Part shown: piece after piece, positions 15,489 to 54,608 of the stretch
Position numbering within the stretch: position 1 is the stretch's first letter
Layout: every line of letters begins with the position of its first letter
Assembly (NCBI GenBank): GCA_003576915.1
Contig: QEVF01000009.1
Coordinates: 17,638-81,637 of the forward strand
Length of the DNA stretch: 64,000 nucleotides
Direction of reading: 5' to 3'
DNA from: Planctomycetota bacterium
Lineage (GTDB): Bacteria > Planctomycetota > UBA8742 > UBA2392
Translations under genes and position numbers: made by a program
Notes under the pieces: generated by a model
Seen by the model: only the letters and a program-made list of their open reading frames with translations
Databases searched by the model: none
What the model was told of the DNA's origin: nothing

Positions 15489-18400
15489 TCAGCGCATTTT
15501 GAGTTTCTTCGCCTCGGCCTCGAGCTGATCGGCGGCCTTGGTCAGCCCGGCCTTGAACTTCTTGGTGTCCTCGTCTTCAAAGCCCAGATTCGGCAGGGCC
15601 TTGTTGCGCAGCAAGGTCAGCGTGTCGTCGACCTCGCGCTTGACCAGGACTTCGCTGGCCAGCTCTTCAATGCCCATGGCCTGCTTTCCGTACTTGCGCA
15701 GCCAGTCCGTGGTGAGCTGTCCCCAGGCCAGGAGGCTCTTGCGGTACTCCGGACGGTAGGGATGGTCGTCCAGCTGCGCAAAGCTTGTCCACTGGTCGAG
15801 GTGAATGCGGCGAGCACGCCAGAGGTAGTCGGCCTCGCTCTTGGGCAGGGCCTGGACCTTCTTGGGGTCGGCCTCAAGCCACACGTTGAACTGGTCTACA
15901 AAGGGCGGATACTCGACAGCGGGCCCCTTGAGGGCATGCAGTTCAAGGAAGATGGCAATCAGCGTGTCAATGGTGTCGAGGTAATACAGTTCGATCTGCG
16001 CCTTGAAGGTCAGCTCGAACAGGACGCCGCCGCGCTGGCTCTTGGCCATTTCGTTGACGTTGCGGACGATCACGAAGCAGTAGGCGCGCCGCATCAGCAC
16101 TGCCGCCTTCTTGAGATCCTCCACGTTGCGGCTTTCCTTGTACTGCTCAAAGTAGGCGCGTCCGAGCTGGTACTTCAGCTCCAGCTCTTCGCCGCTCCTG
16201 GTTCCGCCGCACAGCGGAGGCTTGGCCTGGCGGTTGGTGGGAATCAGCAGCTCATTGCCGAAATACTTGCTCTTCTGGTGCAGGTCGAGGCACTGCTGGA
16301 GATAGAAGATGGCGCGCTTCCAGTCGCGGACACGGAAGTAGTTCTTGCCCAGAATCAGCAGGTCCGCCGGCGGCAACTCGGCGTTGCCGGAGCCGCGCGT
16401 TTCACGCCAGCGTTCGTAATAGGTGAGCACCTTGGTGAGCATGGGGCGCATGCGTTCATCGAGGCTGGCCGAAGTCTCCTCGAGAAAACCGCCGAAATCG
16501 TAGATGAAGGTCGTGCCCACGAAGTAGGCCAGGTGCGCGGTATTCAGGCTCACCTGGGTGTTCAGTGTGGCATACAGGCCGGCCTTGTCCGCGGGCAGCT
16601 TGGTGTCGCGGGCCTGGGCGTCCAGCCGGTCCAGCAGTTCCGTGTTGGCGCCGGTCGTCAGCTTCTGGGCGTCGGAACGGATGGAGTCATAGGCCTTGTC
16701 CTTGATCAGCGCGTCAAACTCGGCGCGCACGGCATCGCCCCAGCGCTTGGGGTAGGACTCCGCGTACTCCTTCCAGCGTTTCTCCAGGATGGGCAAGAGC
16801 TCCGGCGTCACCAGCGTGGCGACGTTCTTGTCCGTGCCCAGGGCGACTTTGACCAGCCACTCATCCCAGAAGTGCTGGGCGAGGAGGCGGTGCTTTTCGA
16901 GCGTGTTCTTGGCGGCGTTGTACTTGTCCAGCTTTTCCTTGTTGGAGCCCAAGGCGCCCTCAGACTTGAAAAGGCCGATCTTGAGCTGGTTGAACAGCGA
17001 GCGGAGATTGGTGGAGGCGTTGGTCAGTGCCTGGGTGCGCGGATTGAGGGTGTCGATGAAAATGGTGTAGATGCGGGCAATCATGTCCGCGATCTTCTTC
17101 TTCTGGTCGGGGAAGGCGGCCTCGTAGGCGCGCAGCAGTGCCTCGGCGCCGTCGCCGTCCTGCTCTTCCGCCAGGCCCCAGAAGGAAAGCTCGATGACCG
17201 CGCGCTGCACCTCCGCCGCCGAAGCGAAGTGGGAGCCAAACAGGTCCCAGTGGCGCTTGAGGATCGTGAGCGCCGTGGCGCGGTTGGCGTTGCGCAACTC
17301 GTCGCGCTTGGCGTCGGATTTGGCGGGATTGCGCATCAGAAAGGCGTACCAGTAGGCCGCACGGCCCATCATTTCCATTTCATCGCTGGGCTGCCGCGAA
17401 CGCTCGGGCTGCTGCTTCCAGCGCTCCTGCATGACTTCCGCGACGGCCAGGAAACACTGCACGAGGTTGTCCTTGTCGGGGCTGACGCGCTCCTTGATGT
17501 CGTCCCAGTTGCGCAGCACCACCACCAGCATGTACTTCTTGAAGTAATAGACGGCCTTGTGCCACATGGCGACATCGACCTTGAGGGCCGTGTCGGCCAT
17601 GGCGGCAAAGTGGGCTTCCTCCTGCTTCTCCCAGATCTGCTTGGGCAGGCCCTCGAAGTCGCGGGCGTGGCGGGCCTTCTGCTCCGCAAAGAACTCCGCC
17701 GTTTCCTGCTCATTGGCCTCGCCGGAGCGGCTGGGGTGGCGGGCGGCAGCGTCCTCAATCTGGTTGGCATAGGCCGTGGCCGCAAAATACATGGCGATGC
17801 GGAACTTCTTGTAGCGCACCGGCAGCGAGGCATAGCGCACGGCGGCCTGGGAGAACTTCTTGGCGTTGTAAAGCTTGCCGGCGTTGGCAAAGGCTAGGTC
17901 GTTGACGGCGTCTTCGCCGCCGAGCTTGGCCTTGAAGTCGTCAGCCTCGGTCTTGAGGCCTTCAAACGTCTTGTTGCCGGGCTCCCCGAACTTGCCGCTC
18001 ACCAGCCAGCCGGCGACCTTGGAGTAGGCCTTGGCCATTTCGCCGGGAAAGTCATAGGCCGACTTGGTGTCGGTGATCAGGTCGCACATGTTCTTCATGT
18101 GGTCCGGCACGGGCTGGCCCGCCTCGGGGGCGGTGTCGCCGTTGTCCTTGCCGAACTTGTAGACGAAGTACCACGTGCGCAGGCAGGCCTCACGATAGGC
18201 CATGGCGCCATCGACGTAACGATGCAGCAGATCAGAGTAGATCGTGGCGATCTTTGAGAAGCACTCGGGCGCATAGGTTTCAAACGACTGCACGCTGGTG
18301 CACTCCGCCAGCAGCAACTGGTAGGCGCGCAGCACCTTCAGGATGGGCCCGTAGCCCACGATCACCGCGTCCTTGATCACGGCCTTGCCGCAGCGCAGGC

Positions 18401-19511
18401 GCAGCTCCGGCGAAACGCCCTCGCCCGCGCCGATGTCCGCCAGCACGGAAAGGGCCTGGCGCTTGAAGTTCAGGTCATTGTCGGATGCCAGCTTGAACAG
18501 CTCGTCCAGGGCCTGATTGATGTTGGCTCCCAGCCGAATCTGGGCGCTGATGCGGAACAGGTTGAAACGCTTGAAATCCGTGGCCAGCTCGCGAATGGAG
18601 CCGTACTGGGTGAACGCCTTCTGATACTGGTCGATGCACTGCTGCAGGAAGCGCCTTTCGTAGCCCAGATCGCCGGTCTGGAGTTCGGCGGCGCGCAACC
18701 AGCCGCGCAGGGCCTGGGACCCGACGTCAGGTCCGGGCGGGTAGTCCGCCAGCAGGCTGGGAATCTCGAGATACTTGGCGACGGCCCCCTCCGGGTTGCG
18801 CAGGGCAAGTTCGATATCGCCCAGCAGCAATACCGCGTCGATCCACTCCACACAGATGTCGAAGCTGAACTGCAGCTCGCTGACCTCGTTGGACGCCTGG
18901 CGGAAGAAGCCCACGCGCTCACTGCTGCCTTCCGGGTAGGTCAAGCCCTTCACATACAGCGAAACACAGATGTTCAGGAATGCCTGGCGATAGTTGTGAG
19001 CCAGCCTGCTGTTGTCCCAGAAAGCCGTGCCCAGCTCATTGCGCTTGGTTTCAAGGGAGCCGCGCTCTTCCTTGAGCGTGCCCAGGGCCTTGTCAACCAG
19101 GACGCGCGCACCCTCGGCGTTGAGGCGGGCCTTGGCCCGTGCCAGCTCGATGCGCAGAATGGCCAGCTCGATGCGGCCGTCCTGGTCTTCAGGGTTGCCG
19201 TAGACTTCCTCGGCGCTTTCGTAGCCTTTGCTCCGGGCGTCGAGGTCGCCGCTGCGCGAAAACTCGTCGTCGGCCTTGGCCTTGAACACGCGCGCGAGCG
19301 CCGAGCGCGCCCGGGACTTTTCGTCGTCTGTGCCGCGGTCCATCTGGCGGCGCAAAAGCTTCTCGGCCTCGTCGTACATCTTGAGGCGAACGCCCAGATA
19401 ATAGCCATAGTCCGAGAGATCCCGGGCCTCGGCCTGGCCCGCGCAAGCCCCCAGCGTGAGCATCAGGGCGAGCGTCGAGAAGATCATCAGATAACTGCCG
19501 CGTGTGAACAT
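15489..19511 (-). CDS. Very large (1340 aa) secreted helical/TPR-like repeat protein
   Basis: Signal-like N-terminus MIFSTLALMLTLGACAG. Protein-like composition throughout; the antisense ORF at 15762-17897 is compositionally a shadow. Confidence 0.7.
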   Translation of the reverse strand: MFTRGSYLMIFSTLALMLTLGACAGQAEARDLSDYGYYLGVRLKMYDEAEKLLRRQMDRGTDDEKSRARSALARVFKAKADDEFSRSGDLDARSKGYESAEEVYGNPEDQDGRIELAILRIELARAKARLNAEGARVLVDKALGTLKEERGSLETKRNELGTAFWDNSRLAHNYRQAFLNICVSLYVKGLTYPEGSSERVGFFRQASNEVSELQFSFDICVEWIDAVLLLGDIELALRNPEGAVAKYLEIPSLLADYPPGPDVGSQALRGWLRAAELQTGDLGYERRFLQQCIDQYQKAFTQYGSIRELATDFKRFNLFRISAQIRLGANINQALDELFKLASDNDLNFKRQALSVLADIGAGEGVSPELRLRCGKAVIKDAVIVGYGPILKVLRAYQLLLAECTSVQSFETYAPECFSKIATIYSDLLHRYVDGAMAYREACLRTWYFVYKFGKDNGDTAPEAGQPVPDHMKNMCDLITDTKSAYDFPGEMAKAYSKVAGWLVSGKFGEPGNKTFEGLKTEADDFKAKLGGEDAVNDLAFANAGKLYNAKKFSQAAVRYASLPVRYKKFRIAMYFAATAYANQIEDAAARHPSRSGEANEQETAEFFAEQKARHARDFEGLPKQIWEKQEEAHFAAMADTALKVDVAMWHKAVYYFKKYMLVVVLRNWDDIKERVSPDKDNLVQCFLAVAEVMQERWKQQPERSRQPSDEMEMMGRAAYWYAFLMRNPAKSDAKRDELRNANRATALTILKRHWDLFGSHFASAAEVQRAVIELSFWGLAEEQDGDGAEALLRAYEAAFPDQKKKIADMIARIYTIFIDTLNPRTQALTNASTNLRSLFNQLKIGLFKSEGALGSNKEKLDKYNAAKNTLEKHRLLAQHFWDEWLVKVALGTDKNVATLVTPELLPILEKRWKEYAESYPKRWGDAVRAEFDALIKDKAYDSIRSDAQKLTTGANTELLDRLDAQARDTKLPADKAGLYATLNTQVSLNTAHLAYFVGTTFIYDFGGFLEETSASLDERMRPMLTKVLTYYERWRETRGSGNAELPPADLLILGKNYFRVRDWKRAIFYLQQCLDLHQKSKYFGNELLIPTNRQAKPPLCGGTRSGEELELKYQLGRAYFEQYKESRNVEDLKKAAVLMRRAYCFVIVRNVNEMAKSQRGGVLFELTFKAQIELYYLDTIDTLIAIFLELHALKGPAVEYPPFVDQFNVWLEADPKKVQALPKSEADYLWRARRIHLDQWTSFAQLDDHPYRPEYRKSLLAWGQLTTDWLRKYGKQAMGIEELASEVLVKREVDDTLTLLRNKALPNLGFEDEDTKKFKAGLTKAADQLEAEAKKLKMR

Positions 19512-41987: not shown

Positions 41988-44900
41988 ATGAAAAGCATCC
42001 GAGACAAGTGGTGGCTTCACGCAGGGGTCCTGGGCGCCCTGCTGGGCGGGCTGCTGCTTGCCTGGGTGGCCTTGGGCGCCCATGAAGTTGAACACGCCGC
42101 ACTGCTCAATGACCTGCGCCGCAGCAAGACTGCCGCGGCTCAGGAGACGCCCTTGCAGGCCGGGCGCCGCTTTGGCGGCCTGGCGACGGAAATCGAACAT
42201 CGCCTCGAGGCAGCCAGCCTCGACGAGCGCAACGTGCCCACGGCGCGGTTTCTGGCCGCCCTCCTCAGGCTCTGGCAGGCCGAACGGGAGCTGGATCACC
42301 ATGCCAATACCGCCGACACCCATACCTTCGGGCAGGCGCGAGCCTACGAACGGTTGCTGGCAGCGATGGGCAATGAAGCGCTGACGACCGGAGAGGAATC
42401 TCTGGGCGAAGAACGGGCGGAGGCCGTGCGGCAGGCGCTGGGCGAGGAGTTGCCCACGCGTGAAGGGCTTTCGCGGCGCCTGGAGGCCCTGCACTGGAAG
42501 CTGGCCGCGCGCTGCCTTCGTGAAGGGGACCATCTTGCCGCCTGGCAATATCTGCGCCTGCTGCATGAACCGTTGAGCATCCGCTCCGGGCAGGGCGACG
42601 AACTCTGGGTCTTGCCCTCCCTGGGCGCCCGCGCAGCCGAAAGCATGCAGGCGTTCATGGAGTCCCTGGCGCAGGGGGCCGTCGGCGGCCCGGCGCCCGA
42701 CCTGGCTCAGCAACAGAGGGACTGCGCGGCCATCCTGGACCGATTGGGTTCACTGTGCCGCCTGGCGGCGAGCAGCGCCAAGCCGGCGGGCGAGGAGTTT
42801 GCCCGAAAATCCGAAGAACTGACCAAGCGGGAAAGCGTGCTGGAAGCCGACATCGCCGCCCTGAGCCGGCCGGCGCTCTCGGCGGCGCAGGAGCGCGAGC
42901 ACCTGTCCCGCTATTACCCGGACTCAGCTTCCCTGGAGGCCGCCCTCAAGGACACCGCGCAGCACCGCCTCGACCGTCTGGCCGAGCGCCGCCTGGCGCT
43001 CAAGGTCGAGGTCGAGCGCTACAAATCAGCCCAGGAGGCCCTGCAGGGGTTTCTGCAATACCCCTCCAAACTGGTCCGCGAGGTTGTCAACGCGCCAAGG
43101 GCGCGGGAGGCACTCCGGCAATCCATCGCCGCCGCCCTTGCCGCGCGCCGACCCTGGCTCTTGCCCCTTCCGGGCGCGGCAAGGCAGCCCCTTCCGGAGG
43201 CCGCGCAACTGGCGCAACTGGCCCAGCAGGCCCTGGCCGCGGAGTTGTACCTTTGTGCGGCCCAATGTGCCCGGCTCGCGGGGCGAAAAGATGACGCTTC
43301 GGCGGCGCTGAAGGACATGCAGTCGCACTTTGAGGCCTGGGCTGATCTGGTTCAATTTGAACCGGCCGCAGCGGAAGCGGAATCCGGCCGCGGGCACCTG
43401 GGCGTGAGCCTGCTGGCCGCGGCCAGAGCCCAGATCCAGTCCCGTGTTCAGGGGAGCGCTGGCGAGTCGGCCCAGGTGCAACTGGAGTGGGTGCGGCGCA
43501 TGGAGGCCGCCCTGCTGACCGGCAGTTCCGAACACTCGGCGCTGGCCCTGGACGAGGCCCTGGGGGTCCTGCGCACGCTCAGCGGCCCGCGGCGCCCGGC
43601 GGCGGGCCAGAAGGACGAACAGGGAGAGCCCGAACTGCCCCGGCTGGAAGCACGCTACGAGAGTCTGCGCGATGCCGCGCTGGCCATGCTTGCCCGTGAT
43701 GCGGGCTCGGACCAGCCCGAGGTGCGTGACCTAGGGGAACTGGGTCTGGCACACCTGATGCTCGCGGACGCCGGGTACCGGTTCGACTTCCTCTTCTGGC
43801 AGGATACGGAGCATCTGTCTGCCTTCGCGCGCCCCGGGGAGGGCGCGAAGGCGGCCAGAGCCCGCTGGCTGGAGGGTCCGCCGCGCGAGGCCCGGCGCCA
43901 GGTCGCCGAGATTCTGGCGCGCCTTGAGCAGCGCACCCAGTTTTCGCAGCAACCCCGCCTCTACATCGAAACCAGGCTGCTCAAGGGCCGCCTGCGGGAG
44001 CTTTCGCCGGCCCCCAACTCCCCATCGGGCCTGCTGGGGGACTGGGCGGGGGCCCTGCGGGACATCTATCTGCCCCTGTGCCAGAGTTCAGAACTGCGCA
44101 CCCTGGACCCCTCTGAACAGGGCGCCCTGGACAGCCTGTCCGAGTTCGCCGCGCAGTACCTCCAGAGGCTCGACCGCGTGCTGGCCCTGGCCCCGCAACC
44201 GGATGCCCTTCAGGCGGCCCGCTGGGCCGCCGCCGACGCCTGCAGGCGCGTGCTGGCCGAACTGGGGGCGGTCACCGATCACGTGGCCATGCTCGACCAA
44301 CTGGCGCAGCTTCGGGTTCTGCCGCCCGCGGCACACCGCCGGGCCTATGAACTGCTGGCCCACGTGGCAGGCCTCGAACAGCATCTGGCGCAGGAAGCCC
44401 AGGCCCAGCGCCAGAGCGACAAGGCCCGCAGCTACGCCACGGAAGCCCGCAAGCACTACCGGCTGGCGGCCGCACGCCTGATGGATGACCTCAAGAACCT
44501 TCCCCCCGGCGCCTCGGAAGCCGCCCTCATGTGCTCCCTGGGGCTGTGCTTTGAACAGGGAGGTGAACCCCTGCTGGCGGTGGCCGCCCTTCGCCGCTAC
44601 TTCGCCGCCCGCGATGTTCTGGATCGCGCCGAGGGCAGGGGCAACCATTTCGAGGCCGCCAATGCCATGGCGCGCTCCTTTGAGGCCCTGGAGAACTACA
44701 GCGACGCCGGCAGCGGCAGTGAATTCGGCGGTGCCGTGGCCGCGTGGCGCTGGTCCGTCATGCAGTCCCGGCGCGTGATTGAACGCAGCGGCAAGCTGCC
44801 GCCCCACTCCCTTGAGGCTTTCATCGGCCTGGCGCGCTCGCGCAGGCACCTGGCGCTGGCCAGGCAGGATGCGACGCAACTGACCCTTGCCATGGAGGAG

Positions 44901-45722
44901 CTGGAAGACCACATCCTGCTGGCGCGCATCTTCAAGGTTCCGCCGCGCGACCTCGACCAGACCTCGGCCTGGCGCGACGCCCAGTTCGAGCGTGGCCTCT
45001 GTGCCCTGGAACTGGCCCGCATCGAGCGCGCCTCGGAGGGATTTGTCCCGCACCGCGCGCGCCGCTGGCTGGATCTGGCCCGCCGTTCCTTTGACGACGT
45101 CGTCCAGCGCTTCCACGACGAGGAAAGCGAGCCTGTGCTGCGCGCACAACTGGAACTGGCCCGCGCTGAATGGATGGACGGCGTCTACGTGCCCTCGCCC
45201 CTGTCCGATGCGAGCCTCGATCCCCTCAAGCGCGCCGCCGCCCGCATGCAGGCCCTGACGGCGCAACTCGAAACCCAGCGCGCCCGCAGCGACTCCGCAC
45301 AGATGCCCTTTGAACACGAGGTGCTGGAGCGTGATGCCCTGTGCCTCCAGGGAGACGTGCTGGAACTGCTGGGGCGCCGCCTTGAGGCCATTGCCGCGGC
45401 CCCCCTGGGGCAGCCACAGGACTGGCTGGAGGCCCGCAAACGACTGGAGGGCGCCCTGGCCGCCTATGAGCGCCTTGAGCGCCTGTATGGACAATCCCAC
45501 CTCAGCGCCTGGGCCCTGGCCCAGCGCATCGAGATTCTGCGGCTGCTGGGCACCCGCGCTCCCGTGGACCGCGAACGGGCCCAGGAACTCCTCGACGGCG
45601 CCGAGCGCGCCCTCGAACGCATCACAGAGTCCCAATGGGCTCAGGCCCCCGCCAGCATGGGCAAAGCCTACTGGGAGCAGTGGTTCCGCTGGTATCGCCA
45701 AAGCCGCGCACTGGAGCGCTGA
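41988..45722 (+). CDS. Very large (1244 aa) membrane-anchored helical-repeat protein
   Basis: N-terminal TM helix WWLHAGVLGALLGGLLLAWVALGA. The rest is A/L/E/R-rich helical and TPR-like. Confidence 0.65.
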   Translation: MKSIRDKWWLHAGVLGALLGGLLLAWVALGAHEVEHAALLNDLRRSKTAAAQETPLQAGRRFGGLATEIEHRLEAASLDERNVPTARFLAALLRLWQAERELDHHANTADTHTFGQARAYERLLAAMGNEALTTGEESLGEERAEAVRQALGEELPTREGLSRRLEALHWKLAARCLREGDHLAAWQYLRLLHEPLSIRSGQGDELWVLPSLGARAAESMQAFMESLAQGAVGGPAPDLAQQQRDCAAILDRLGSLCRLAASSAKPAGEEFARKSEELTKRESVLEADIAALSRPALSAAQEREHLSRYYPDSASLEAALKDTAQHRLDRLAERRLALKVEVERYKSAQEALQGFLQYPSKLVREVVNAPRAREALRQSIAAALAARRPWLLPLPGAARQPLPEAAQLAQLAQQALAAELYLCAAQCARLAGRKDDASAALKDMQSHFEAWADLVQFEPAAAEAESGRGHLGVSLLAAARAQIQSRVQGSAGESAQVQLEWVRRMEAALLTGSSEHSALALDEALGVLRTLSGPRRPAAGQKDEQGEPELPRLEARYESLRDAALAMLARDAGSDQPEVRDLGELGLAHLMLADAGYRFDFLFWQDTEHLSAFARPGEGAKAARARWLEGPPREARRQVAEILARLEQRTQFSQQPRLYIETRLLKGRLRELSPAPNSPSGLLGDWAGALRDIYLPLCQSSELRTLDPSEQGALDSLSEFAAQYLQRLDRVLALAPQPDALQAARWAAADACRRVLAELGAVTDHVAMLDQLAQLRVLPPAAHRRAYELLAHVAGLEQHLAQEAQAQRQSDKARSYATEARKHYRLAAARLMDDLKNLPPGASEAALMCSLGLCFEQGGEPLLAVAALRRYFAARDVLDRAEGRGNHFEAANAMARSFEALENYSDAGSGSEFGGAVAAWRWSVMQSRRVIERSGKLPPHSLEAFIGLARSRRHLALARQDATQLTLAMEELEDHILLARIFKVPPRDLDQTSAWRDAQFERGLCALELARIERASEGFVPHRARRWLDLARRSFDDVVQRFHDEESEPVLRAQLELARAEWMDGVYVPSPLSDASLDPLKRAAARMQALTAQLETQRARSDSAQMPFEHEVLERDALCLQGDVLELLGRRLEAIAAAPLGQPQDWLEARKRLEGALAAYERLERLYGQSHLSAWALAQRIEILRLLGTRAPVDRERAQELLDGAERALERITESQWAQAPASMGKAYWEQWFRWYRQSRALER

Positions 45723-50543: not shown

Positions 50544-50903
50544 TCAGGCCCGCCTGAACTTCTCGCAGGCGTAGGGCTGGTCTTTCAGCGCTTTGCACAG
50601 CGCGTCTTCGGTCAGCTCGCAACCCGCCTTCATGGTGATGGTCAGCGTTTCGTGTTTCTCGTCCAGGCTCACCTCGTCCACACCGTCCAGTGCGAGCACC
50701 AGCTTCCTGAGGGCGGCTGCGCCTTCGGCGTCCTTGACTCCGCTGACCGAAACTTCATATTTCGCTGCCTTCACGGGCAGGTTGCGCGGGCCTCAGCCCG
50801 CTCACAGAAAGTCGGGCGTTGCGCCCCCGGCGCCAAAGGGCGCCGCCGACAGCGCGCCGCAGGACAGTGCGGCCAGCAAAACCAGCGTGAGCATCCTGTG
50901 CAT
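50544..50903 (-). CDS. Exported protein with N-terminal UAGU motif (two in-frame TGA) followed by an HMA-like ferredoxin-fold domain; putative selenoprotein A
   Basis: GAGGAG lies 6 nt upstream of the ATG at 50903. Signal peptide MHRMLTLVLLAALSCGALSA. The TGAs at 50802-50804 and 50793-50795 are in frame with the 76-aa ORF at 50544-50774, reading ..DFL-U-AG-U-GPRNLPVKAAKYEVSVSGV.. The listed ORF starts only at an internal GTG. Confidence 0.6.
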
Positions 50904-50960: not shown

Positions 50961-51272
50961 TCAGGGACCGGCAGGCGTCAGGGGGCTCAACTGGCGCAGG
51001 GTTACCCCCTGTTCGAGGGCCAACCGCTCAAGGGCAGCGCGCAGGGCCTGCTCCGTGCCAAGCCAGGTGATGTGAAACTCGCCCTGGGGCTCTTCGTATA
51101 CGCTTTGGACGCCATCCAGGCGCGCGATCATCTGATCGAAACCGGGTCAGTCCTCGCCTCACTGCCCGTAATCGAGCCAGGCGAGATAGTGGTGGGGCGG
51201 GGGCGCCTGCGGTTTGGGCGGGGCCGCACAGGCGGCGAGCAGCAGCAAGGACGTGAGCCACATCAAGCGCAT
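50961..51272 (-). CDS. Lipoprotein with HMA-like domain carrying UGEDU at the metal-binding loop (two in-frame TGA); putative selenoprotein B
   Basis: The ATG at 51272 gives MRLMWLTSLLLLAAC (lipobox). The TGAs at 51159-51161 and 51147-51149 are in frame. My manual translation downstream is stop-free to the TGA at 50961: ..YLAWLDYGQ-U-GED-U-PGFDQMIARLDGVQSVYEEPQGEFHITWLGTEQALRAALERL.. I see no clear SD. Confidence 0.55.
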
Positions 51273-51333: not shown

Positions 51334-51753
51334 CTACTTGCCGGAGCCCTTGTTCCCGTCAGTTCCGTCCTTCTTTTCTTCCTTCTTTTCTTCCTTGGTC
51401 TCCTCGCCTTCCTTGGCGAAAGAGCGGACGCTGAACTTGCTGTCCTCGAAGGCCTTGACGACCGCATCCTTCTCGATCGTCTTGCCTTCCTTCATCGTGA
51501 CGGTGGCTTCCTGCTTCTTCTTGTCCCACGTTGCTTTTTCCACGCCTTCCAGGCTGGAGAGGGTCTTGACGACCGCAGGTCCTCACGTCGCTCACGTCGC
51601 GCCGTCGATGCCAACCTTGTAAACCGTGGGTGCTGCCTTGGCCGGCTGCTCGGCCTTCTTTTCTTCGCCCTTGCTCTCCTGGGCCTGGCAGGCCACGCCC
51701 GCCACACTGACCGAGAGCAGGAGCGCGGCAGCGACGAATCCCATCTGACGCAT
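51334..51753 (-). CDS. Exported HMA/MerP-like protein with GAT-U-AT-U-G at the GMTCxxC position (two in-frame TGA); putative selenoprotein C
   Basis: AGGAGG lies 6 nt upstream of the ATG at 51753. Signal peptide MRQMGFVAAALLLSVSVAGVAC. TGAs at 51592-51594 and 51583-51585. The readthrough product VYKVGIDGATUATUGPAVVKTLSSLEGVEKATWDKKKQEATVTMKEGKTIEKDAV aligns with the Cys paralog VVTIEGMTCIKCAKAVEKAIAAIDGVESVKVCDKSGKALVTMKEGKTLDKTAV. Confidence 0.7.
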
Positions 51754-51825
51754 GTGCATCCTCCTGTTAGAGAAATGGAAACAACCCTTCCATATGGAAC
51801 TACGGAGGGCAGCTTAGCATTCCGC

Positions 51826-51858
51826 AAAAAAAGAGGGAGCGGCGCAGGCCGCTCCCTC
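51826..51858 (-). terminator. Strong rho-independent terminator after the Cys-type HMA gene
   Basis: On the minus strand, GAGGGAGCGGC-CTGC-GCCGCTCCCTC (11-bp stem) is followed by TTTTTTT. Confidence 0.8.
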
Positions 51859-51877
51859 GGCATGCGGGCGCAGAAGA

Positions 51878-52360
51878 CTAGCCCTTGGACTTCTCTGCCG
51901 TCTTCGCTTCCTTGTTCTCGTCCTTCTTGGGTTCGGCCTTCACGACGGACTTGGTCTTGAACTCCGTCTCCTTGAGGGCCGTCTCGACGGCGGTCTTGTC
52001 AAGGGTCTTGCCTTCCTTCATGGTGACCAGCGCCTTGCCGGACTTGTCGCAGACCTTGACGGACTCAACACCGTCAATGGCGGCAATGGCCTTCTCCACG
52101 GCCTTGGCGCACTTGATGCAGGTCATGCCTTCAATCGTCACGACAAAGCTGTTGGCCTTGACCTCGCCGCAGCCGCCACAATCCTTGGCATCGCCCTTGT
52201 CACAGCAGCCCTTGCCTTCTTCTTCACAGCACTTCTCGCCGTCCTTCTTCTCGCTCTTCTTGTCGCCGCAGCTATCACAGCCCTTGCACTGGGCCATCAG
52301 CGGGGCGCCGGCGAAAGCCAGGCCGAGGAAGAGCATCAAAGCAGTCAGGAACTTCGTCAT
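51878..52360 (-). CDS. Exported Cys-rich HMA domain protein (MerP/CopZ-like, canonical GMTCxxC)
   Basis: The ATG at 52360 gives signal peptide MTKFLTALMLFLGLAFAGAPLMA. A Cys-rich linker follows (CKGCDSCG..CCEEEGKGCCDKGDAKDCGGCG), then VVTIEGMTCIKCAKAVEKAI. Confidence 0.85.
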   Translation of the reverse strand: MTKFLTALMLFLGLAFAGAPLMAQCKGCDSCGDKKSEKKDGEKCCEEEGKGCCDKGDAKDCGGCGEVKANSFVVTIEGMTCIKCAKAVEKAIAAIDGVESVKVCDKSGKALVTMKEGKTLDKTAVETALKETEFKTKSVVKAEPKKDENKEAKTAEKSKG

Positions 52361-52459
52361 GTCGTCTCCGTTCATTAGTGCGGGGCAAGGCCCCATCGTG
52401 GTTGTCGTAAGCGGCCCATTATAGACGAACGGGCCGGGTCCGTCCTTACATCAAAATGG

Positions 52460-52936
52460 TCATTTCACCTTGTGTCGCGCCTTGAGCGCCTTCCAGTCTC
52501 CCTGCAGGTCCTCCTTGAAGCTGAAGACCTCATAGCCGAAGTCCTTGTAGATGAAGTCTGTGACAGTCTTCTCGTCCAGCCGGATCTGGGGCTTGCACAG
52601 GACGAAAAGCGTGAATTCCTCGATCACGGTGAAGCTGTCCAGCAACCCATACTGGGTGGTGAGGGCGTCCACGACGCCCGTGGTTCAGCCGCCTCAGTCG
52701 ATGCCCTTGAGGCCGATGGCGTAGATCACCTCCCTGATTTCCGGCCTGGCTTCCGGTTCCGCCTTGGGTTCAACCTTCGGCTCGGCCTTGGGCTGGGGCC
52801 TCGCGCCGCAGCCGGAGTCAACGGAAGCAGGCTCGCCGCCGCCCTTGCGCAGATGCACGGGCTGGAAGTCTTCTTTGGTGAGCTGGCAGCCGCCCGTCAG
52901 GGCCAGCAGCAACAGGGCCAGGAGTCCGCGGTTCAT
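52460..52936 (-). CDS. Lipoprotein with HMA-like domain carrying UGGU at the metal-binding loop (two in-frame TGA); putative selenoprotein E
   Basis: GAGGAG lies 6 nt upstream of the ATG at 52936. Lipobox LALTGGC. The TGAs at 52694-52696 and 52685-52687 join the listed ORFs 52694-52936 and 52460-52672 in one frame: ..EVIYAIGLKGID-U-GG-U-TTGVVDALTTQYG.. Confidence 0.65.
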
Positions 52937-52946
52937 AGCCTTCTCC

Positions 52947-53834
52947 TCAAATCAGGTAGCTGAACATCAGCATGAATTCGCCTTCATGGTAGAACTGCTT
53001 GCCGAACAGATAGCGATAAACCGGCAGGTTCAGCCCGAACTTGCACTCGATGCGGTTGGTGATGTTCATCTGCATGCCAAGCGCCAGATGTACGAAATAG
53101 CCGCCGCTGTTGTCATCGCGGTCGCCGTGCATGCGTCCGCGGTGCTCAAAGCGGGCGTCGGCCTCCACCAGCAGAATCAGGTCAAAATCGCGGTAATCCG
53201 TAAGCTGGAACACGCGATAGGCGTAGGCCAGGTGGGCCTGGGCTTCGGGGCCCGCGCCGCTGCCGTCAATCTGGGTGCTGCCGCGCCCCGCCAGGTCAAA
53301 CCAGAGGTAGTGGCGTGTGGTGCTGGTGGAAGCTGAGAGGCCGAACGTGAACGTCCAGTTGTCGTCAAACTCGTCGCCCATGGGCTCGCCGTGGCGCCGC
53401 GTGGCCGTGGGCATGTCGATCGTGGCAAACCACGACGCCTTGGTGGAACCGCCCTCAAACACGTTGTTGAGGAAGCGGTAAGTGCCGGCCAGAGAGAACT
53501 TGCGGGCGCCGGAGTAGACCTCGCTCCCGTCCTTGCTGTGTTCGCGCATGTAGAAGTAGGGCGTCTTGATCCGCATGGCGAAGTCGCGCGAGAACCCGTA
53601 GGTGACGCCGGGCTCGATGGTGTGCATGAACATGCGGCGGTCGCGCCCGTTGGAATCGGGGTTGTCGCCGCTGAAATAGCGGAAGGCCCAGTCGAACTCC
53701 TGCTCGAGTTCAAGTTCGAGGCCCTTGTTCCAGATGGTTCTGGGTCCCAGTCCGAACATGGTTTCGTGGGCGCTCACGGCGCCCGCGCCCAGAACTCAGA
53801 CCAGTGCCAGCAAAGCCAGGTGCTTCAGCGTCAC
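52947..53834 (-). CDS. Putative outer-membrane beta-barrel protein with one in-frame TGA inside the signal peptide
   Basis: The GTG at 53834 is preceded by AAGGAG with a 6-nt spacer and overlaps the merR stop (GTGA). The N-terminus MTLKHLALLALV-[TGA 53796-53798]-VLGAGAVSA|HE is a signal peptide. The body has alternating beta-strand-like sequence and ends ..MLMFSYLI. Confidence 0.6.
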
Positions 53835-54274
53835 GCCGGACTCCTTTTCTTGCCCTTGGGGGCCCTGGTTGGACCGCCTTCTATGCCTTGGAGGATGCTG
53901 CAGCATTCGGTGCTCTTGTCGCCGCCGGGGCAGCGTTCAATGAGGTCAGCGAGGTGATCGCGCATCTCGGTCAGCAGCTCGATTTTGCGAGTAATCTCGA
54001 TGAGCTTGCGCGAGGCAAGCTCGCTGACGTCTCCGCAGGTGGCGAGGTCGGAGGTGCGCAGGAACAGCAGGTCCTGAATCTCTTTGAGCGTGAAGCCGAC
54101 ATCCTTGGCGCGCTGGATGAAGCGCAGGCGCGCGACGTCGTCGTCGCCGTAGAGGCGATGGCCGCCGGCGCTGCGCTCGGGTTTGGGCAACAGACCCTCG
54201 CGCTCATAAAAGCGCACGGTTTCGATGTTGATGCCCGTGGACTCGGCCAGCTTGCCTACCGTCATGGTGGTCAT
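53831..54274 (-). CDS. merR: MerR-family regulator with the mercury-type Cys triad
   Basis: The HTH is KLAESTGINIETVRFYEREGLL. Cys80, Cys115 and Cys124 have the same spacing (35 residues, then C-x8-C) as Cys82, Cys117 and Cys126 of Tn501 MerR as I recall it. Confidence 0.85.
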   Translation of the reverse strand: MTTMTVGKLAESTGINIETVRFYEREGLLPKPERSAGGHRLYGDDDVARLRFIQRAKDVGFTLKEIQDLLFLRTSDLATCGDVSELASRKLIEITRKIELLTEMRDHLADLIERCPGGDKSTECCSILQGIEGGPTRAPKGKKRSPA

Positions 54275-54291
54275 GTGGCACCTCGGGGAAC

Positions 54292-54322
54292 AAGTTACCT
54301 CCGTAGCTTACTACGGGTTCAA
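54292..54322 (-). promoter_or_regulatory. MerR-type promoter/operator: -35 TTGAAC, 19-bp spacer containing dyad CCGTAG-N4-CTACGG, -10 TAACTT
   Basis: The minus strand reads TTGAAC CCGTAGTAAGCTACGGAGG TAACTT. The spacer counts to 19 nt. The dyad resembles the Tn501 mer operator (TCCGTAC-N4-GTACGGA). It lies ~18 nt upstream of the merR ATG. Confidence 0.75.
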
Positions 54323-54363
54323 GGGAATTGGCAGGAATCAGAACGGCAGCAACTGCGCAGAGT

Positions 54364-54391
54364 CTGGAAGCTGGTGGTCAGGGCCGGACTT
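54364..54391. repeat. Direct repeat of the tRNA-Phe 3' end (copy distal to the tRNA)
   Basis: ctgGaagctggtggtcagggccggactt matches 54525-54552 at 27 of 28 positions, with 24 contiguous identities. Confidence 0.9.
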
Positions 54392-54494
54392 CGAGCAGCC
54401 GCTGCGCGGCTGCGAGACAGCGCAGCAGCCCGGCCCACAGGCCGGGCGTAAGCGTAGCGGCGGCGAGCGCAGCGAGACGAAAACCTCACGAAAT

Positions 54495-54524: not shown

Positions 54525-54552
54525 CTGAAAGCTGGTGGTCAGGGCCGGACTT
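54525..54552. repeat. Direct repeat copy overlapping the 3' end of tRNA-Phe
   Basis: See 54364-54391. Confidence 0.9.
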
Positions 54553-54608
54553 GAACCGGCGACCCATGCATTTTCAGTGCATTGCTCTACCAACTGAGCT
54601 ACCTGACC
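54533..54608 (-). tRNA. tRNA-Phe (anticodon GAA), CCA encoded
   Basis: The minus strand reads GGTCAGG TA GCTC AGTTGGTA GAGC A ATGCA CTGAAAA TGCAT GGGTC GCCGG TTCAAGT CCGGC CCTGACC A CCA. This gives a complete cloverleaf. Confidence 0.9.

What the first reader, a model, noticed from the sequence alone, without database searches (positions are those of the whole stretch)
52460..52936. Lipoprotein HMA-like selenoprotein candidate with UGGU and a 7-bp GC hairpin just downstream
The two listed ORFs (52694-52936 and 52460-52672) are one reading frame, separated only by TGA GGC GGC TGA plus four sense codons (ACC ACG GGC GTC). The N-terminal part supplies the SD, lipobox and linker. The C-terminal part supplies the rest of a beta-alpha-beta-beta-alpha-beta domain. 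On the mRNA, G GGCGUC GUG GACGCC C (52663-52679) forms a perfect stem with a GUG loop. It starts 5 nt after the second UGA and 14 nt after the first. This is a position compatible with a SelB-binding element.
Basis: partly seen in the sequence, partly recalled or inferred. Interest (0 to 1): 0.8.

Follow-up and report, generated by a model that had tools for sequence, protein, structure and literature searches.

The report
Two-selenocysteine metal-binding lipoprotein, unannotated
This is very probably a real gene for a membrane-anchored metal-binding protein whose two metal-gripping cysteines are replaced by selenocysteine. It is one of four such genes in a mercury-sensor-controlled operon of Planctomycetota bacteria, and public databases list it only as broken fragments.

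Summary
On the minus strand, 52936-52460 is one reading frame interrupted only by TGA GGC GGC TGA, followed by the hairpin at 52679-52663.

Across 24 distinct orthologs, all from Planctomycetota MAGs or metagenomes, both internal stops are always TGA. The search pattern would also have accepted Cys codons. True terminators vary, and TGA is the normal stop in this genome.

The protein is conserved on both sides of the stops. With U→C, the family profile matches only solved HMA domains (E = 2e-6), with the Sec columns on the CxxC.

Synonymous sites are frozen from UGA1 through two downstream hairpins:
- A second hairpin (52657-52645) covaries and carries the canonical SECIS loop G[GU]N, 32 nt after UGA2.

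Three more genes in the operon (C, D, E) also have conserved Sec pairs. The operon begins with a mer-type promoter, a three-Cys MerR and an outer-membrane channel.

UxxU HMA selenoproteins are already catalogued (NF041115). This family does not meet that model and has no detectable Cys form, so I rate it a new variant of a known kind.

Two things could not be checked here: Sec machinery in the same genome, and the full-domain fold.

The parts
52460..52936 (-). Gene A: lipoprotein precursor (158 codons including 2 Sec). Signal peptide with lipobox LTGGC, a Pro/Glu/Lys-rich linker, a divergent HMA domain with the metal loop G-I-D-U-G-G-U, and a C-terminal extension with a conserved D-W.
   Evidence: frame and coordinates; 24 orthologs, all with both TGAs; HMA homology; coding signature.
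52694..52696 (-). First in-frame UGA (Sec 1), aligned with the first Cys of the HMA CxxC.
   Evidence: TGA in 24/24 orthologs although the search pattern accepted TGC/TGT. The column aligns on Cys of GMSCGHC in CopZ 6ff2.
52685..52687 (-). Second in-frame UGA (Sec 2), aligned with the second Cys of the HMA CxxC.
   Evidence: Same as for Sec 1.
52663..52679 (-). The loop lies 21 nt after UGA1 and 12 nt after UGA2. Proposed SECIS for UGA1.
   Evidence: 98% of cells paired in 23 sequences. Codons ACG, GGC, GAC and GCC are invariant 23/23 where synonymous change elsewhere is 40-70%. Mean -12.3 kcal/mol.
52645..52657 (-). Hairpin 2: ACCCA-GUA-UGGGU. The loop is G[GU]N in all orthologs, 32 nt after UGA2 and 41 nt after UGA1. 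Proposed SECIS for UGA2, or for both.
   Evidence: Closing pair AU:10, GC:8, UA:1; outer pair UA:17, AU:2; a register-shifted GCCC-GGUC-GGGC in 3 lineages. 0/500 shuffles reach the covariation score. RNAalifold finds it independently. Mean -7.8 kcal/mol.
54292..54322 (-). mer-type promoter/operator: -35 TTGAAC, a 19-nt spacer containing the dyad CCGTAG-N4-CTACGG, and -10 TAACTT.
   Evidence: Read from the sequence. The motif is conserved upstream of merR in the L002, L004 and L007 lineages. The resemblance to Tn501 merO is recalled from memory and was not tested.
53831..54274 (-). MerR-family metal sensor with three Cys in register with the Hg(II) ligands of MerR.
   Evidence: Pfam MerR_1 4.6e-23. 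TIGR02051 MerR is the best NCBIfam hit (132 bits, below the 150.85 cut-off). Best PDB matches are 4ua1 (3.8e-28) and 5crl, with Cys aligned.
52947..53777 (-). Conserved outer-membrane beta-barrel channel (the 'anchor' gene used to find orthologous loci).
   Evidence: 15 homologs, all syntenic with gene A. AF2 model pTM 0.73, about 14 strands. Foldseek: COG4313 channel 4rl8 TM 0.70, FapF TM 0.66.
51878..52360 (-). Gene B: secreted Cys-rich protein with a canonical CxxC HMA domain (GMTCIKC).
   Evidence: Pfam HMA 6.4e-9.
51334..51753 (-). Gene C: secreted HMA protein with U-A-T-U (UGAs at 51594-51592 and 51585-51583). Hairpins at 51574-51562 and 51558-51539, at the same distances from the UGAs as in gene A.
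   Evidence: Pfam HMA 2e-7 with U→C. NF041115 33.5 bits, below cut-off. Orthologs keep both TGAs.
50961..51272 (-). Gene D: lipoprotein with U-G-E-D-U (UGAs at 51161-51159 and 51149-51147). Hairpins at 51138-51125 and 51123-51109.
   Evidence: Motif Y[DE]x-U-GEx-U-PGFDQ[LM]IARL is conserved in 6 distinct orthologs. No detectable HMA homology.
50544..50903 (-). Gene E: lipoprotein with U-A-G-U (UGAs at 50804-50802 and 50795-50793), N-terminal to an HMA-like domain that lacks CxxC. Single hairpin at 50780-50765 with a covarying stem and constant loop CGUGAA.
   Evidence: The stem is CUGCC/GGCAG, GGGCC/GGCCC or AUGCC/GGCAU in different lineages.

Best explanation
Gene A (52936-52460, minus strand) is one gene for a selenoprotein. 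It encodes a lipid-anchored periplasmic protein whose flexible Pro/Glu/Lys linker carries a divergent HMA (ferredoxin-like metal-binding) domain. In that domain both metal-ligand cysteines of the GMxCxxC loop are selenocysteines (G-I-D-U-G-G-U).

Both UGA codons are recoded by SelB and Sec-tRNA(Sec), directed by RNA structure inside the coding sequence just downstream. I propose two tandem hairpins:
- Hairpin 1 (52679-52663) has its loop 21 nt after UGA1 and would serve the first UGA. It begins only 5 nt after UGA2, so it should be inside the ribosome and melted when UGA2 reaches the A site.
- Hairpin 2 (52657-52645, loop G[GU]N, 32 nt after UGA2) would serve the second UGA.

The gene belongs to an operon headed by a mer-type promoter and a three-Cys MerR sensor. 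That operon also encodes an outer-membrane channel, a Cys-rich CxxC HMA protein and three more di-selenocysteine proteins.

The most likely role is very high-affinity capture and hand-over of a soft metal ion in the periplasm, with Hg(II) as the best guess and Cd, Pb, Cu(I) or Ag(I) as alternatives.

Shown here: the conserved UGAs, translation through them, HMA homology, the conserved and covarying RNA hairpins, and the operon context.

Inferred: that Sec is the inserted residue, which hairpin serves which UGA, the metal, and the direction of traffic.
For: Recoding:
- Both internal stops are TGA in 24/24 distinct orthologs. The retrieval pattern accepted TGA, TGC or TGT and any synonymous codon.
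- Eight of these orthologs were found independently through synteny.
- True terminators vary (TGA, TAG, TAA), and TGA ends 19 of 30 Pfam-supported genes in the window. UGA is therefore not reassigned.
- Protein is conserved on both sides of the stops, with identity to the window protein down to about 30%.
- Codon-position variability downstream is 0.39 / 0.36 / 0.60, and three lineages have no start codon within 20 codons of UGA2.

HMA:
- The family profile with X at the Sec columns hits CopZ 6ff2 over the whole domain, with X on C..C (E = 0.014).
- With U→C, 28 PDB hits are all HMA domains, best 2.1e-6.
- 15 of 17 members hit Pfam HMA, best 6.5e-8.

RNA:
- Synonymous differences drop from 0.4-0.7 to about 0 between codons -2 and +17.
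- Hairpin 1 is 98% paired. Hairpin 2 shows AU/GC/UA and UA/AU exchanges plus a register shift, with 0/500 shuffles reaching the covariation score.
- RNAalifold predicts both hairpins. Energies average -12.3 and -7.8 kcal/mol.
- Hairpin 2 fits the published bSECIS consensus: loop G[G|U]N, 16-37 nt spacing (PMC13188914).
- Paralogs C and D show two hairpins at equivalent distances. Gene E has one covarying hairpin, 26 and 17 nt from its two UGAs.

Sec/Cys pair in a neighbouring HMA gene: EGMH-U-ANC in L008 against EGMHCDGC in L010.

Context: MerR with Hg-ligand Cys in register, a promoter with 19-nt spacer and dyad, and an outer-membrane barrel.

Precedent: UxxU HMA selenoproteins are catalogued (NF041115). 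Full Sec machinery is known in several Planctomycetes (PMC4807772).
Against: - No selA, selB, selD or tRNA-Sec is present in the 64-kb window or in any fetched locus. The rest of the genome could not be read.
- No Rfam SECIS family matched at gathering threshold.
- No orthologous Cys form exists, so the classical Sec/Cys-pair criterion is met only through distant HMA homologs.
- The window protein itself gives no Pfam or NCBIfam hit even with U→C. The HMA assignment rests on the family profile.
- The full-domain fold could not be predicted, and the C-terminal-only model was uninformative.
- Hairpin 1 never covaries because it is invariant. Its loop is AUG in 15 of 23 orthologs, which lacks the consensus G in the first two loop positions.
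- Hairpin 2 is 41 nt from UGA1, outside the 16-37 nt range.
- Single-sequence folding is not better than shuffles.
- No merA or merT is present, so this is not a classical mercury-resistance operon, and the metal is a guess.
Confidence: 0.8

Rival explanations
1. A single SECIS. Only hairpin 2, which has the consensus G[GU]N loop, binds SelB and serves both UGAs. Hairpin 1 has another role, such as slowing the ribosome or hindering RF2 at the UGAs, or it is constrained for some other reason.
For: Hairpin 2 is the one with covariation and the consensus loop. Its loop sits at the same distance from UGA1 (41 nt) in the paralogs A, C and D. Gene E manages two UGAs with one visible hairpin. Hairpin 1 has an AUG loop in most orthologs.
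Against: 41 nt from UGA1 lies outside the published 16-37 nt range. Hairpin 1 shows the strongest synonymous constraint in the gene. It has positional counterparts in genes C and D, at 21-25 nt from UGA1.
Confidence: 0.3
2. The UGAs are real stops. Only the 80-aa N-terminal lipopeptide is made, with or without a separately initiated C-terminal ORF, or the locus is a decaying pseudogene.
For: Gene callers split it this way in every public record. No Sec machinery was seen in the window.
Against: A pseudogene would not keep two TGAs, the frame and the protein sequence on both sides across 24 lineages. Residues between UGA2 and any possible start codon are invariant, and L005, L007 and L028 have no start within 20 codons. 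The two stops fall exactly on the metal-ligand positions of an HMA domain that only exists when the halves are joined.
Confidence: 0.03
3. The UGAs are read through, but not as selenocysteine. Examples would be near-cognate Cys or Trp insertion, or a local suppressor mechanism.
For: The identity of the inserted residue was not determined, and the Sec machinery of this genome was not seen.
Against: TGA is the commonest genuine stop here. Both UGAs replace metal-binding Cys, the classic Sec position. SECIS-like hairpins with the consensus loop follow them. Cys codons never substitute in 24 orthologs, which argues that the encoded residue is not simply Cys. UxxU HMA selenoproteins are an accepted family.
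Confidence: 0.04

Closest known systems
NF041115 'UxxU_metal_bind' metal-binding (seleno)protein, first listed as 'putative mercuric reductase' from the Olavius algarvensis delta-1 symbiont (PMC13188914, PMC9312934)
   Same: A small HMA-type domain in which both Cys of the CxxC metal loop are Sec, and a predicted role in soft-metal binding.
   Different: Gene A does not reach the model: the window protein gives no hit, and the best family member reaches E = 2.5e-5 against a 95-bit cut-off. It is a lipoprotein with a long linker and a C-terminal D-W extension. It is restricted to Planctomycetota, and no Cys form was found.
MerP / CopZ periplasmic and cytosolic HMA metallochaperones (PF00403; PDB 1afi, 6ff2, 1cpz)
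   Same: Homologous domain, metal loop in the same register, MerR-family control, and (for MerP) a periplasmic location.
   Different: Sec replaces both Cys. The protein is lipid-anchored. There is no MerT/MerA partner; instead an outer-membrane channel and four sister metal-binding proteins are present.
Sec-containing 'cation-transporting ATPase E1-E2' (UxxC HMA) and the MerT/CopZ fusion selenoprotein NF045683
   Same: Sec in the HMA metal loop of metal-transport proteins.
   Different: Those carry one Sec and are fused to transporters. UxxC HMA proteins do occur in sister loci of this operon (L008, L019, L020).
Bacterial SECIS of E. coli fdhF and the bSECISearch consensus
   Same: A stem-loop inside the coding sequence shortly after the UGA, with a small apical loop carrying G[G|U] and 16-37 nt spacing.
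   Different: Two adjacent hairpins follow two UGAs that are 6 nt apart. I found no description of such a tandem arrangement in bacteria in the library searched.

Membership tests
Bacterial selenoprotein gene | In-frame UGA conserved among orthologs, with conserved coding sequence on both sides | tested here: met
   24/24 orthologs have TGA at both sites. Protein is conserved and position-3-biased variation continues downstream.
Bacterial selenoprotein gene | UGA aligns with Cys in homologs (Sec/Cys pair) | tested here: met
   This is met only through distant homologs: the Sec columns align on the CxxC of solved HMA domains. No orthologous Cys form exists. A true Sec/Cys pair is seen in the neighbouring HMA gene (L008 against L010).
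Bacterial selenoprotein gene | [quoted passage not shown] | tested here: met
   UGA2 to hairpin 2: 32 nt, loop G[GU]N, mean -7.8 kcal/mol, covarying. UGA1 to hairpin 1: 21 nt, -13 kcal/mol, loop GUG in the window but AUG in 15/23 orthologs.
Bacterial selenoprotein gene | selA, selB, selD and tRNA-Sec in the same genome | not testable with these tools
Sec machinery is documented in other Planctomycetes (PMC4807772).
Bacterial selenoprotein gene | Selenium demonstrated in the protein | not testable with these tools
   Needs 75Se labelling or mass spectrometry.
HMA domain (PF00403) | Sequence match to the family model | tested here: inconclusive
   The window protein gives no hit even with U→C. 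15/17 family members hit HMA, best 6.5e-8. The family profile hits 28 solved HMA domains and nothing else, best 2.1e-6.
HMA domain (PF00403) | Metal-binding loop GMxCxxC between beta1 and alpha1 | tested here: met
   G-[IM]-D-U-G-[GQ]-U, in register with GMSCGHC of CopZ, with Sec in place of Cys.
HMA domain (PF00403) | Beta-alpha-beta-beta-alpha-beta fold | tested here: inconclusive
The C-terminal 74-aa model (pLDDT 73) shows the helices but no sheet without beta1.
NF041115 UxxU_metal_bind | Score at or above the curated cut-off (95 bits) | tested here: not met
   No hit for the window protein. Best family member E = 2.5e-5. Gene C scores 33.5 bits.
NF041115 UxxU_metal_bind | UxxU in the HMA metal loop | tested here: met
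   UGGU or UGQU in all orthologs.
mer (mercury resistance) operon | MerR sensor with three Hg-ligand Cys, and a promoter with a 19-20 bp spacer and dyad operator | tested here: met
   The Cys align with those of 4ua1 and 5crl. The 19-nt spacer contains CCGTAG-N4-CTACGG. The TIGR02051 score of 132 is below its 150.85 cut-off.
mer (mercury resistance) operon | merA reductase and merT/merP uptake genes | tested here: not met
   No such genes are in the operon or the window.

The most novel reading that the evidence does not exclude
A clade of Planctomycetota runs a mercury-sensor-controlled, selenium-dependent periplasmic metal-trapping system. It would be built from up to four di-selenocysteine proteins (eight UGA codons in one operon) plus an outer-membrane channel.

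The closely spaced UGA pairs would be decoded by tandem SECIS hairpins, one per UGA. That would be a bacterial recoding arrangement not described before. It would also make gene A the founder of an HMA subfamily that exists only in the diselenol form.
Probability: 0.3. Interest if true: 0.75.

Novelty: new variant of a known kind. Interest (0 to 1): 0.6.

Why it matters
- **Annotation:** every public record holds this gene, and its three sister genes, as pairs of 'hypothetical' fragments. Four proteins per genome are therefore mis-annotated across a whole clade.
- **Biochemistry:** a diselenolate HMA site should bind Hg(II) and other soft metals far more tightly than a dithiolate. A MerR-controlled operon packed with such proteins suggests metal defence by sequestration, a strategy distinct from the classical reduce-and-volatilise mer system, and one that links selenium supply to metal tolerance.
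- **Recoding:** two UGAs six nucleotides apart, followed by two conserved hairpins, give a natural test case for how bacterial SelB and SECIS handle adjacent Sec codons. This is also relevant to engineering multi-Sec proteins.
- **Evolution:** the absence of any Cys form is unusual among selenoprotein families, which nearly all have Cys homologs (PMC13188914).

Tried and rejected
- **Word-indexed protein search** with the U→C joined protein found nothing.
- **Exhaustive HMMER search** with the C-terminal 74 aa found only three fragments. This is useful as evidence that no Cys form exists.
- The C-terminal-only AF2 model was uninformative and I did not take it to a fold search.
- **The search for related loci** with the X-containing alignment failed for lack of a conserved stretch. 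I replaced it with a codon-degenerate DNA pattern.
- **Rfam** gave no SECIS match at gathering threshold.
- **Single-sequence folding statistics** were not significant.
- **Sec machinery:** none found in the window by Pfam annotation of about 40 ORFs or by tRNA scans of the window and 26 fetched loci.
- **Gene D** was tested for HMA homology by profile-versus-PDB and hhalign, and both were negative. I therefore do not call it HMA.
- **Other interrupted genes:** a scan for other TGA-interrupted coding frames in the window found only two adjacent genes sharing a frame.
- **Literature:** searches for tandem bacterial SECIS elements or for this operon found nothing relevant.
- **Extended lower stem:** the window's minimum-energy fold pairs the UGA region with sequence beyond hairpin 1. 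I rejected this because RNAalifold does not support it.
Full report
**1. The observation**

- The ATG at 52936 is preceded by GAGGAGAAGG.
- A signal peptide ends in the lipobox L-T-G-G-C, followed by a Pro/Glu/Lys-rich linker.
- The frame then reads ...I-Y-A-I-G-L-K-G-I-D, TGA (52696-52694), GGC GGC, TGA (52687-52685), ACC ACG GGC GTC GTG GAC GCC CTC..., and continues to a TGA at 52462-52460.
- The stem GGGCGUC/GACGCCC with a GUG loop occupies 52679-52663. It starts 5 nt after the second UGA and 14 nt after the first.

Taken alone, this stretch folds no better than shuffled sequence (z = -0.55; -1.5). The window has no tRNA-Sec and no Rfam SECIS hit. The case therefore rests on comparison with related sequences.

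**2. Source and relatives**

A 2.7-kb contig of GCA_008363065.1 is identical to window 51753-54442. The 276-aa gene immediately upstream has 15 homologs, at 96% down to 40% identity. Those that carry a source name are Planctomycetes MAGs.

In every contig fetched the order is the same: MerR regulator, this gene, then two short ORFs where gene A should be, then more short ORF pairs. Translating through the stops gives eight distinct gene A orthologs. All read D-*-G-[GQ]-*-[TA]-T-G-V, and both stops are TGA.

To widen the set without favouring TGA or the hairpin, I scanned genomes and metagenomes with a codon-degenerate pattern, GAY TGH GGN NNN TGH NCN ACN GGN GTN NTN GAY GC. It accepts Sec or Cys codons and any synonymous codon.
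- It returned 15 genome loci. Fourteen are titled Planctomycetota or Planctomycetaceae MAGs, and one is an 'uncultured bacterium' MAG.
- It returned 10 metagenome loci.
- In total there are 24 distinct sequences, and every one has TGA at both positions. The genuine terminator is TGA, TAG or TAA in different lineages.

An exhaustive HMMER search of 1.84 billion representative proteins with the C-terminal 74 residues found only three fragments of 55-70 aa, all starting after the second TGA. No full-length, Cys-containing relative is detectable. Public databases hold the halves only as separate 'hypothetical protein' entries.

**3. Is it translated through the stops?**

- TGA terminates 19 of 30 Pfam-supported genes in the window, so UGA is not reassigned genome-wide.
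- Identity to the window protein falls to about 30%, yet the frame and 20 columns are invariant, including residues on both sides of each stop.
- Downstream of the RNA-structure region, pairwise differences at codon positions 1, 2 and 3 are 0.39, 0.36 and 0.60. That is a coding signature in this frame.
- Three lineages have no ATG, GTG or TTG within 20 codons after the second UGA, so an independently initiated C-terminal gene is excluded there.

**4. What the protein is**

The window protein alone matches no Pfam or NCBIfam model, even with U replaced by C. The family profile does match.
- With X at the two Sec columns it finds the solved CopZ 6ff2 over the entire domain, and the X columns fall on the two Cys of GMSCGHC (E = 0.014).
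- With C at those columns it finds 28 solved chains, best E = 2.1e-6. All are HMA domains: CopA N-terminal domains, CopZ, ATP7B, ZntA, MerP and the N-terminal domain of MerA.
- 15 of 17 members individually hit Pfam HMA, best 6.5e-8.

The HMA assignment therefore holds by homology. A model of the C-terminal piece alone was uninformative.

The lipobox is present throughout the family (LAGC, AAGC, VGC, SAC, PAC).

**5. The RNA**

Among sequence pairs that share an amino acid, 40-70% use different codons across most of the gene. Between two codons before UGA1 and codon +17 this falls to about zero.
- ACG, GGC, GAC and GCC are each used 23/23 times.
- Ser/Thr/Ala14 is always xCC. Arg/Gln/Leu15 is always CGG, CAG or CUG.
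- Gly17 is GGG in 20/23, although GGC is preferred elsewhere.

This island covers two hairpins.

Its only change is GC to GU in five sequences.

*Hairpin 2* (52657-52645 in the window, ACCCA-GUA-UGGGU) varies by compensatory change.
- The closing pair is AU in 10, GC in 8 and UA in 1.
- The outer pair is UA in 17 and AU in 2.
- Three lineages shift register to GCCC-GGUC-GGGC.
- None of 500 shuffles reaches the observed covariation score or paired fraction. All slid registers pair far worse.
- RNAalifold predicts both hairpins without guidance.
- Mean stabilities are -12.3 and -7.8 kcal/mol.

- Hairpin 2 has a G[GU]N loop in every ortholog, 32 nt after UGA2 but 41 nt after UGA1.
- Hairpin 1's loop is 21 nt after UGA1 but only 12 nt after UGA2. 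That loop is GUG, GUU or GUC in the UGGU subgroup but AUG in the UGQU subgroup.

**6. Sister genes**

The same anatomy recurs three more times just downstream on the same strand.
- **Gene C** (51753-51334) is a secreted protein with ...G-I-D-G-A-T-U-A-T-U-G-P-A-V-V-K-T-L... It passes Pfam HMA once U→C and scores 33.5 bits against NF041115, whose cut-off is 95.
- **Gene D** (51272-50961) is a lipoprotein with Y-G-Q-U-G-E-D-U-P-G-F-D-Q-M-I-A-R-L. The motif is conserved in six distinct orthologs, but the family shows no detectable HMA homology.
- **Gene E** (50903-50544) is a lipoprotein with F-L-U-A-G-U, followed by an HMA-like domain without CxxC.

Genes C and D each have two hairpins at distances matching those of gene A.
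- The proximal loop is 21-25 nt after UGA1.
- The distal hairpin GCC-UGGAW-GGC places its GGA core 41 nt after UGA1.
- The distal loop sits on the codons just before the conserved HMA Gly-Val.

Gene E has a single hairpin whose stem covaries (CUGCC/GGCAG, GGGCC/GGCCC, AUGCC/GGCAU) around a constant CGUGAA loop. It lies 26 and 17 nt after the two UGAs.

Sister loci also contain UxxC HMA genes (E-G-M-T-U-A-N-C). One of these is replaced by CxxC in L010, which is a classical Sec/Cys pair.

**7. Context**

- **Regulator.** It is a MerR-family protein. Its best solved relatives are the Hg(II) sensors of B. megaterium (4ua1, 3.8e-28) and Tn501 (5crl), with all three Hg-ligand Cys in register. CadR follows. 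TIGR02051 MerR is the top NCBIfam hit but falls below its cut-off.
- **Promoter.** Upstream of the regulator lies TTGAAC, a 19-nt spacer containing the perfect dyad CCGTAG-N4-CTACGG, and TAACTT. The motif is conserved in three other lineages. From memory it closely resembles the Tn501 mer operator; I did not test that.
- **The 276-aa gene.** It models as a beta-barrel of about 14 strands (pTM 0.73). It is closest to the COG4313 outer-membrane channel (TM 0.70) and to FapF.
- **Gene B.** It is a secreted, Cys-rich protein with a canonical GMTCIKC HMA domain.
- **What is absent.** There is no merA or merT. The rest of the window encodes pilus, ExbBD, fatty-acid and housekeeping functions, and no Sec machinery.
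- **Terminators.** Terminator-like hairpins follow genes B and C.

**8. Mechanism proposed**

*Shown:* conserved paired UGAs at the metal-ligand positions of an HMA domain, translation across them, two conserved hairpins (one covarying), and a MerR-type operon rich in such proteins.

*Inferred:*
- SelB with Sec-tRNA inserts Sec at both UGAs.
- Hairpin 1 begins 14 nt after UGA1. From memory, that is comparable to the fdhF geometry.
- Hairpin 1 begins only 5 nt after UGA2. From general knowledge of the ribosome's mRNA footprint, it should be unwound when UGA2 is in the A site.
- I therefore favour a division of labour: hairpin 1 for UGA1 and hairpin 2 for UGA2.
- The main rival is that hairpin 2 alone is the SECIS for both.

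The mature protein would be tethered to a membrane by its lipid and would present a diselenolate site on a long flexible linker in the periplasm. It would capture a soft metal ion, with Hg(II) suggested by the sensor, and pass it among the sister proteins and possibly to the outer-membrane channel.

**9. Comparison with what is known**

UxxU HMA-type 'metal-binding (seleno)proteins' are already catalogued as high-confidence predictions. These are NF041115, first called 'putative mercuric reductase' in the Olavius symbiont study. UxxC HMA domains of P-type ATPases and a MerT/CopZ selenoprotein are catalogued too.

Gene A works like these but is not a member of NF041115. The window protein gives no hit, and the best family member reaches E = 2.5e-5 against a 95-bit cut-off. 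It differs by its lipoprotein architecture, its C-terminal extension, its restriction to Planctomycetota and the lack of any Cys form.

I found no description of this operon, or of tandem bacterial SECIS hairpins, in the searchable literature. Complete Sec machinery is documented in several Planctomycetes (PMC4807772).

**10. Verdict**

This is a new, unannotated variant of a known kind of selenoprotein. It sits in an operon that is more remarkable than the single gene: four di-Sec proteins under a mer-type switch.

Remaining gaps:
- Sec machinery in the same genome;
- the full-domain fold;
- the identity of the metal;
- which hairpin serves which UGA.

Noticed in passing
window 51334-51753 (-), 50961-51272 (-), 50544-50903 (-): Three more genes in the same operon carry conserved pairs of in-frame TGA: U-A-T-U in a clear HMA protein, U-G-E-D-U in a lipoprotein of unknown fold, and U-A-G-U ahead of a CxxC-less HMA domain. 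That makes eight Sec codons in about 2.4 kb.
   Followed up: partly
window 54292-54322 (-): mer-type promoter: TTGAAC, a 19-nt spacer with the perfect dyad CCGTAG-N4-CTACGG, and TAACTT, directly upstream of merR. It is conserved in the L002, L004 and L007 lineages.
   Followed up: partly
window 52947-53777 (-): A conserved 276-aa protein with no Pfam or NCBIfam hit models as an outer-membrane beta-barrel resembling the COG4313 channel and FapF. It is always found between merR and gene A.
   Followed up: yes
L008 7562 versus L010 ~7300; also L019, L020, L026, L032: In more distant loci the gene after gene A is an HMA protein with E-G-M-[TH]-U-x-N-C (UxxC). In L010 the same position reads CDGC, which is a Sec/Cys pair.
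   Followed up: partly
L005 ~9000 (+): An HMA variant with three residues between the Sec codons: D-G-M-S-U-G-I-K-U-V-K-K.
   Followed up: no
window 54533-54608 (-) and loci L002, L005, L007, L013, L020, L024, L028 (tRNA-Phe); L008, L010, L016 (tRNA-Gln): The operon lies next to a tRNA gene in many of the loci. This may reflect conserved synteny or an island-like insertion site.
   Followed up: no
window ~51789-51800 (-), upstream of gene C; terminators at 51858-51833 and 51315-51284: Strong terminator-like hairpins follow genes B and C. A perfect 12-bp palindrome, TTCCATATGGAA, lies between the first terminator and gene C. This suggests separate transcription units and perhaps a second operator.
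   Followed up: no
window 15489-19511 (-) and 41988-45722 (+): Two very large ORFs (1340 and 1244 aa) with coding-like GC3 and no Pfam match.
   Followed up: no
public records GIK53732.1, HRJ78554.1, MBV6516659.1, MCQ3950584.1: The C-terminal half of gene A is deposited as a separate 70-aa 'hypothetical protein'. The N-terminal 80-aa half is a separate cluster. No full-length record exists.
   Followed up: yes
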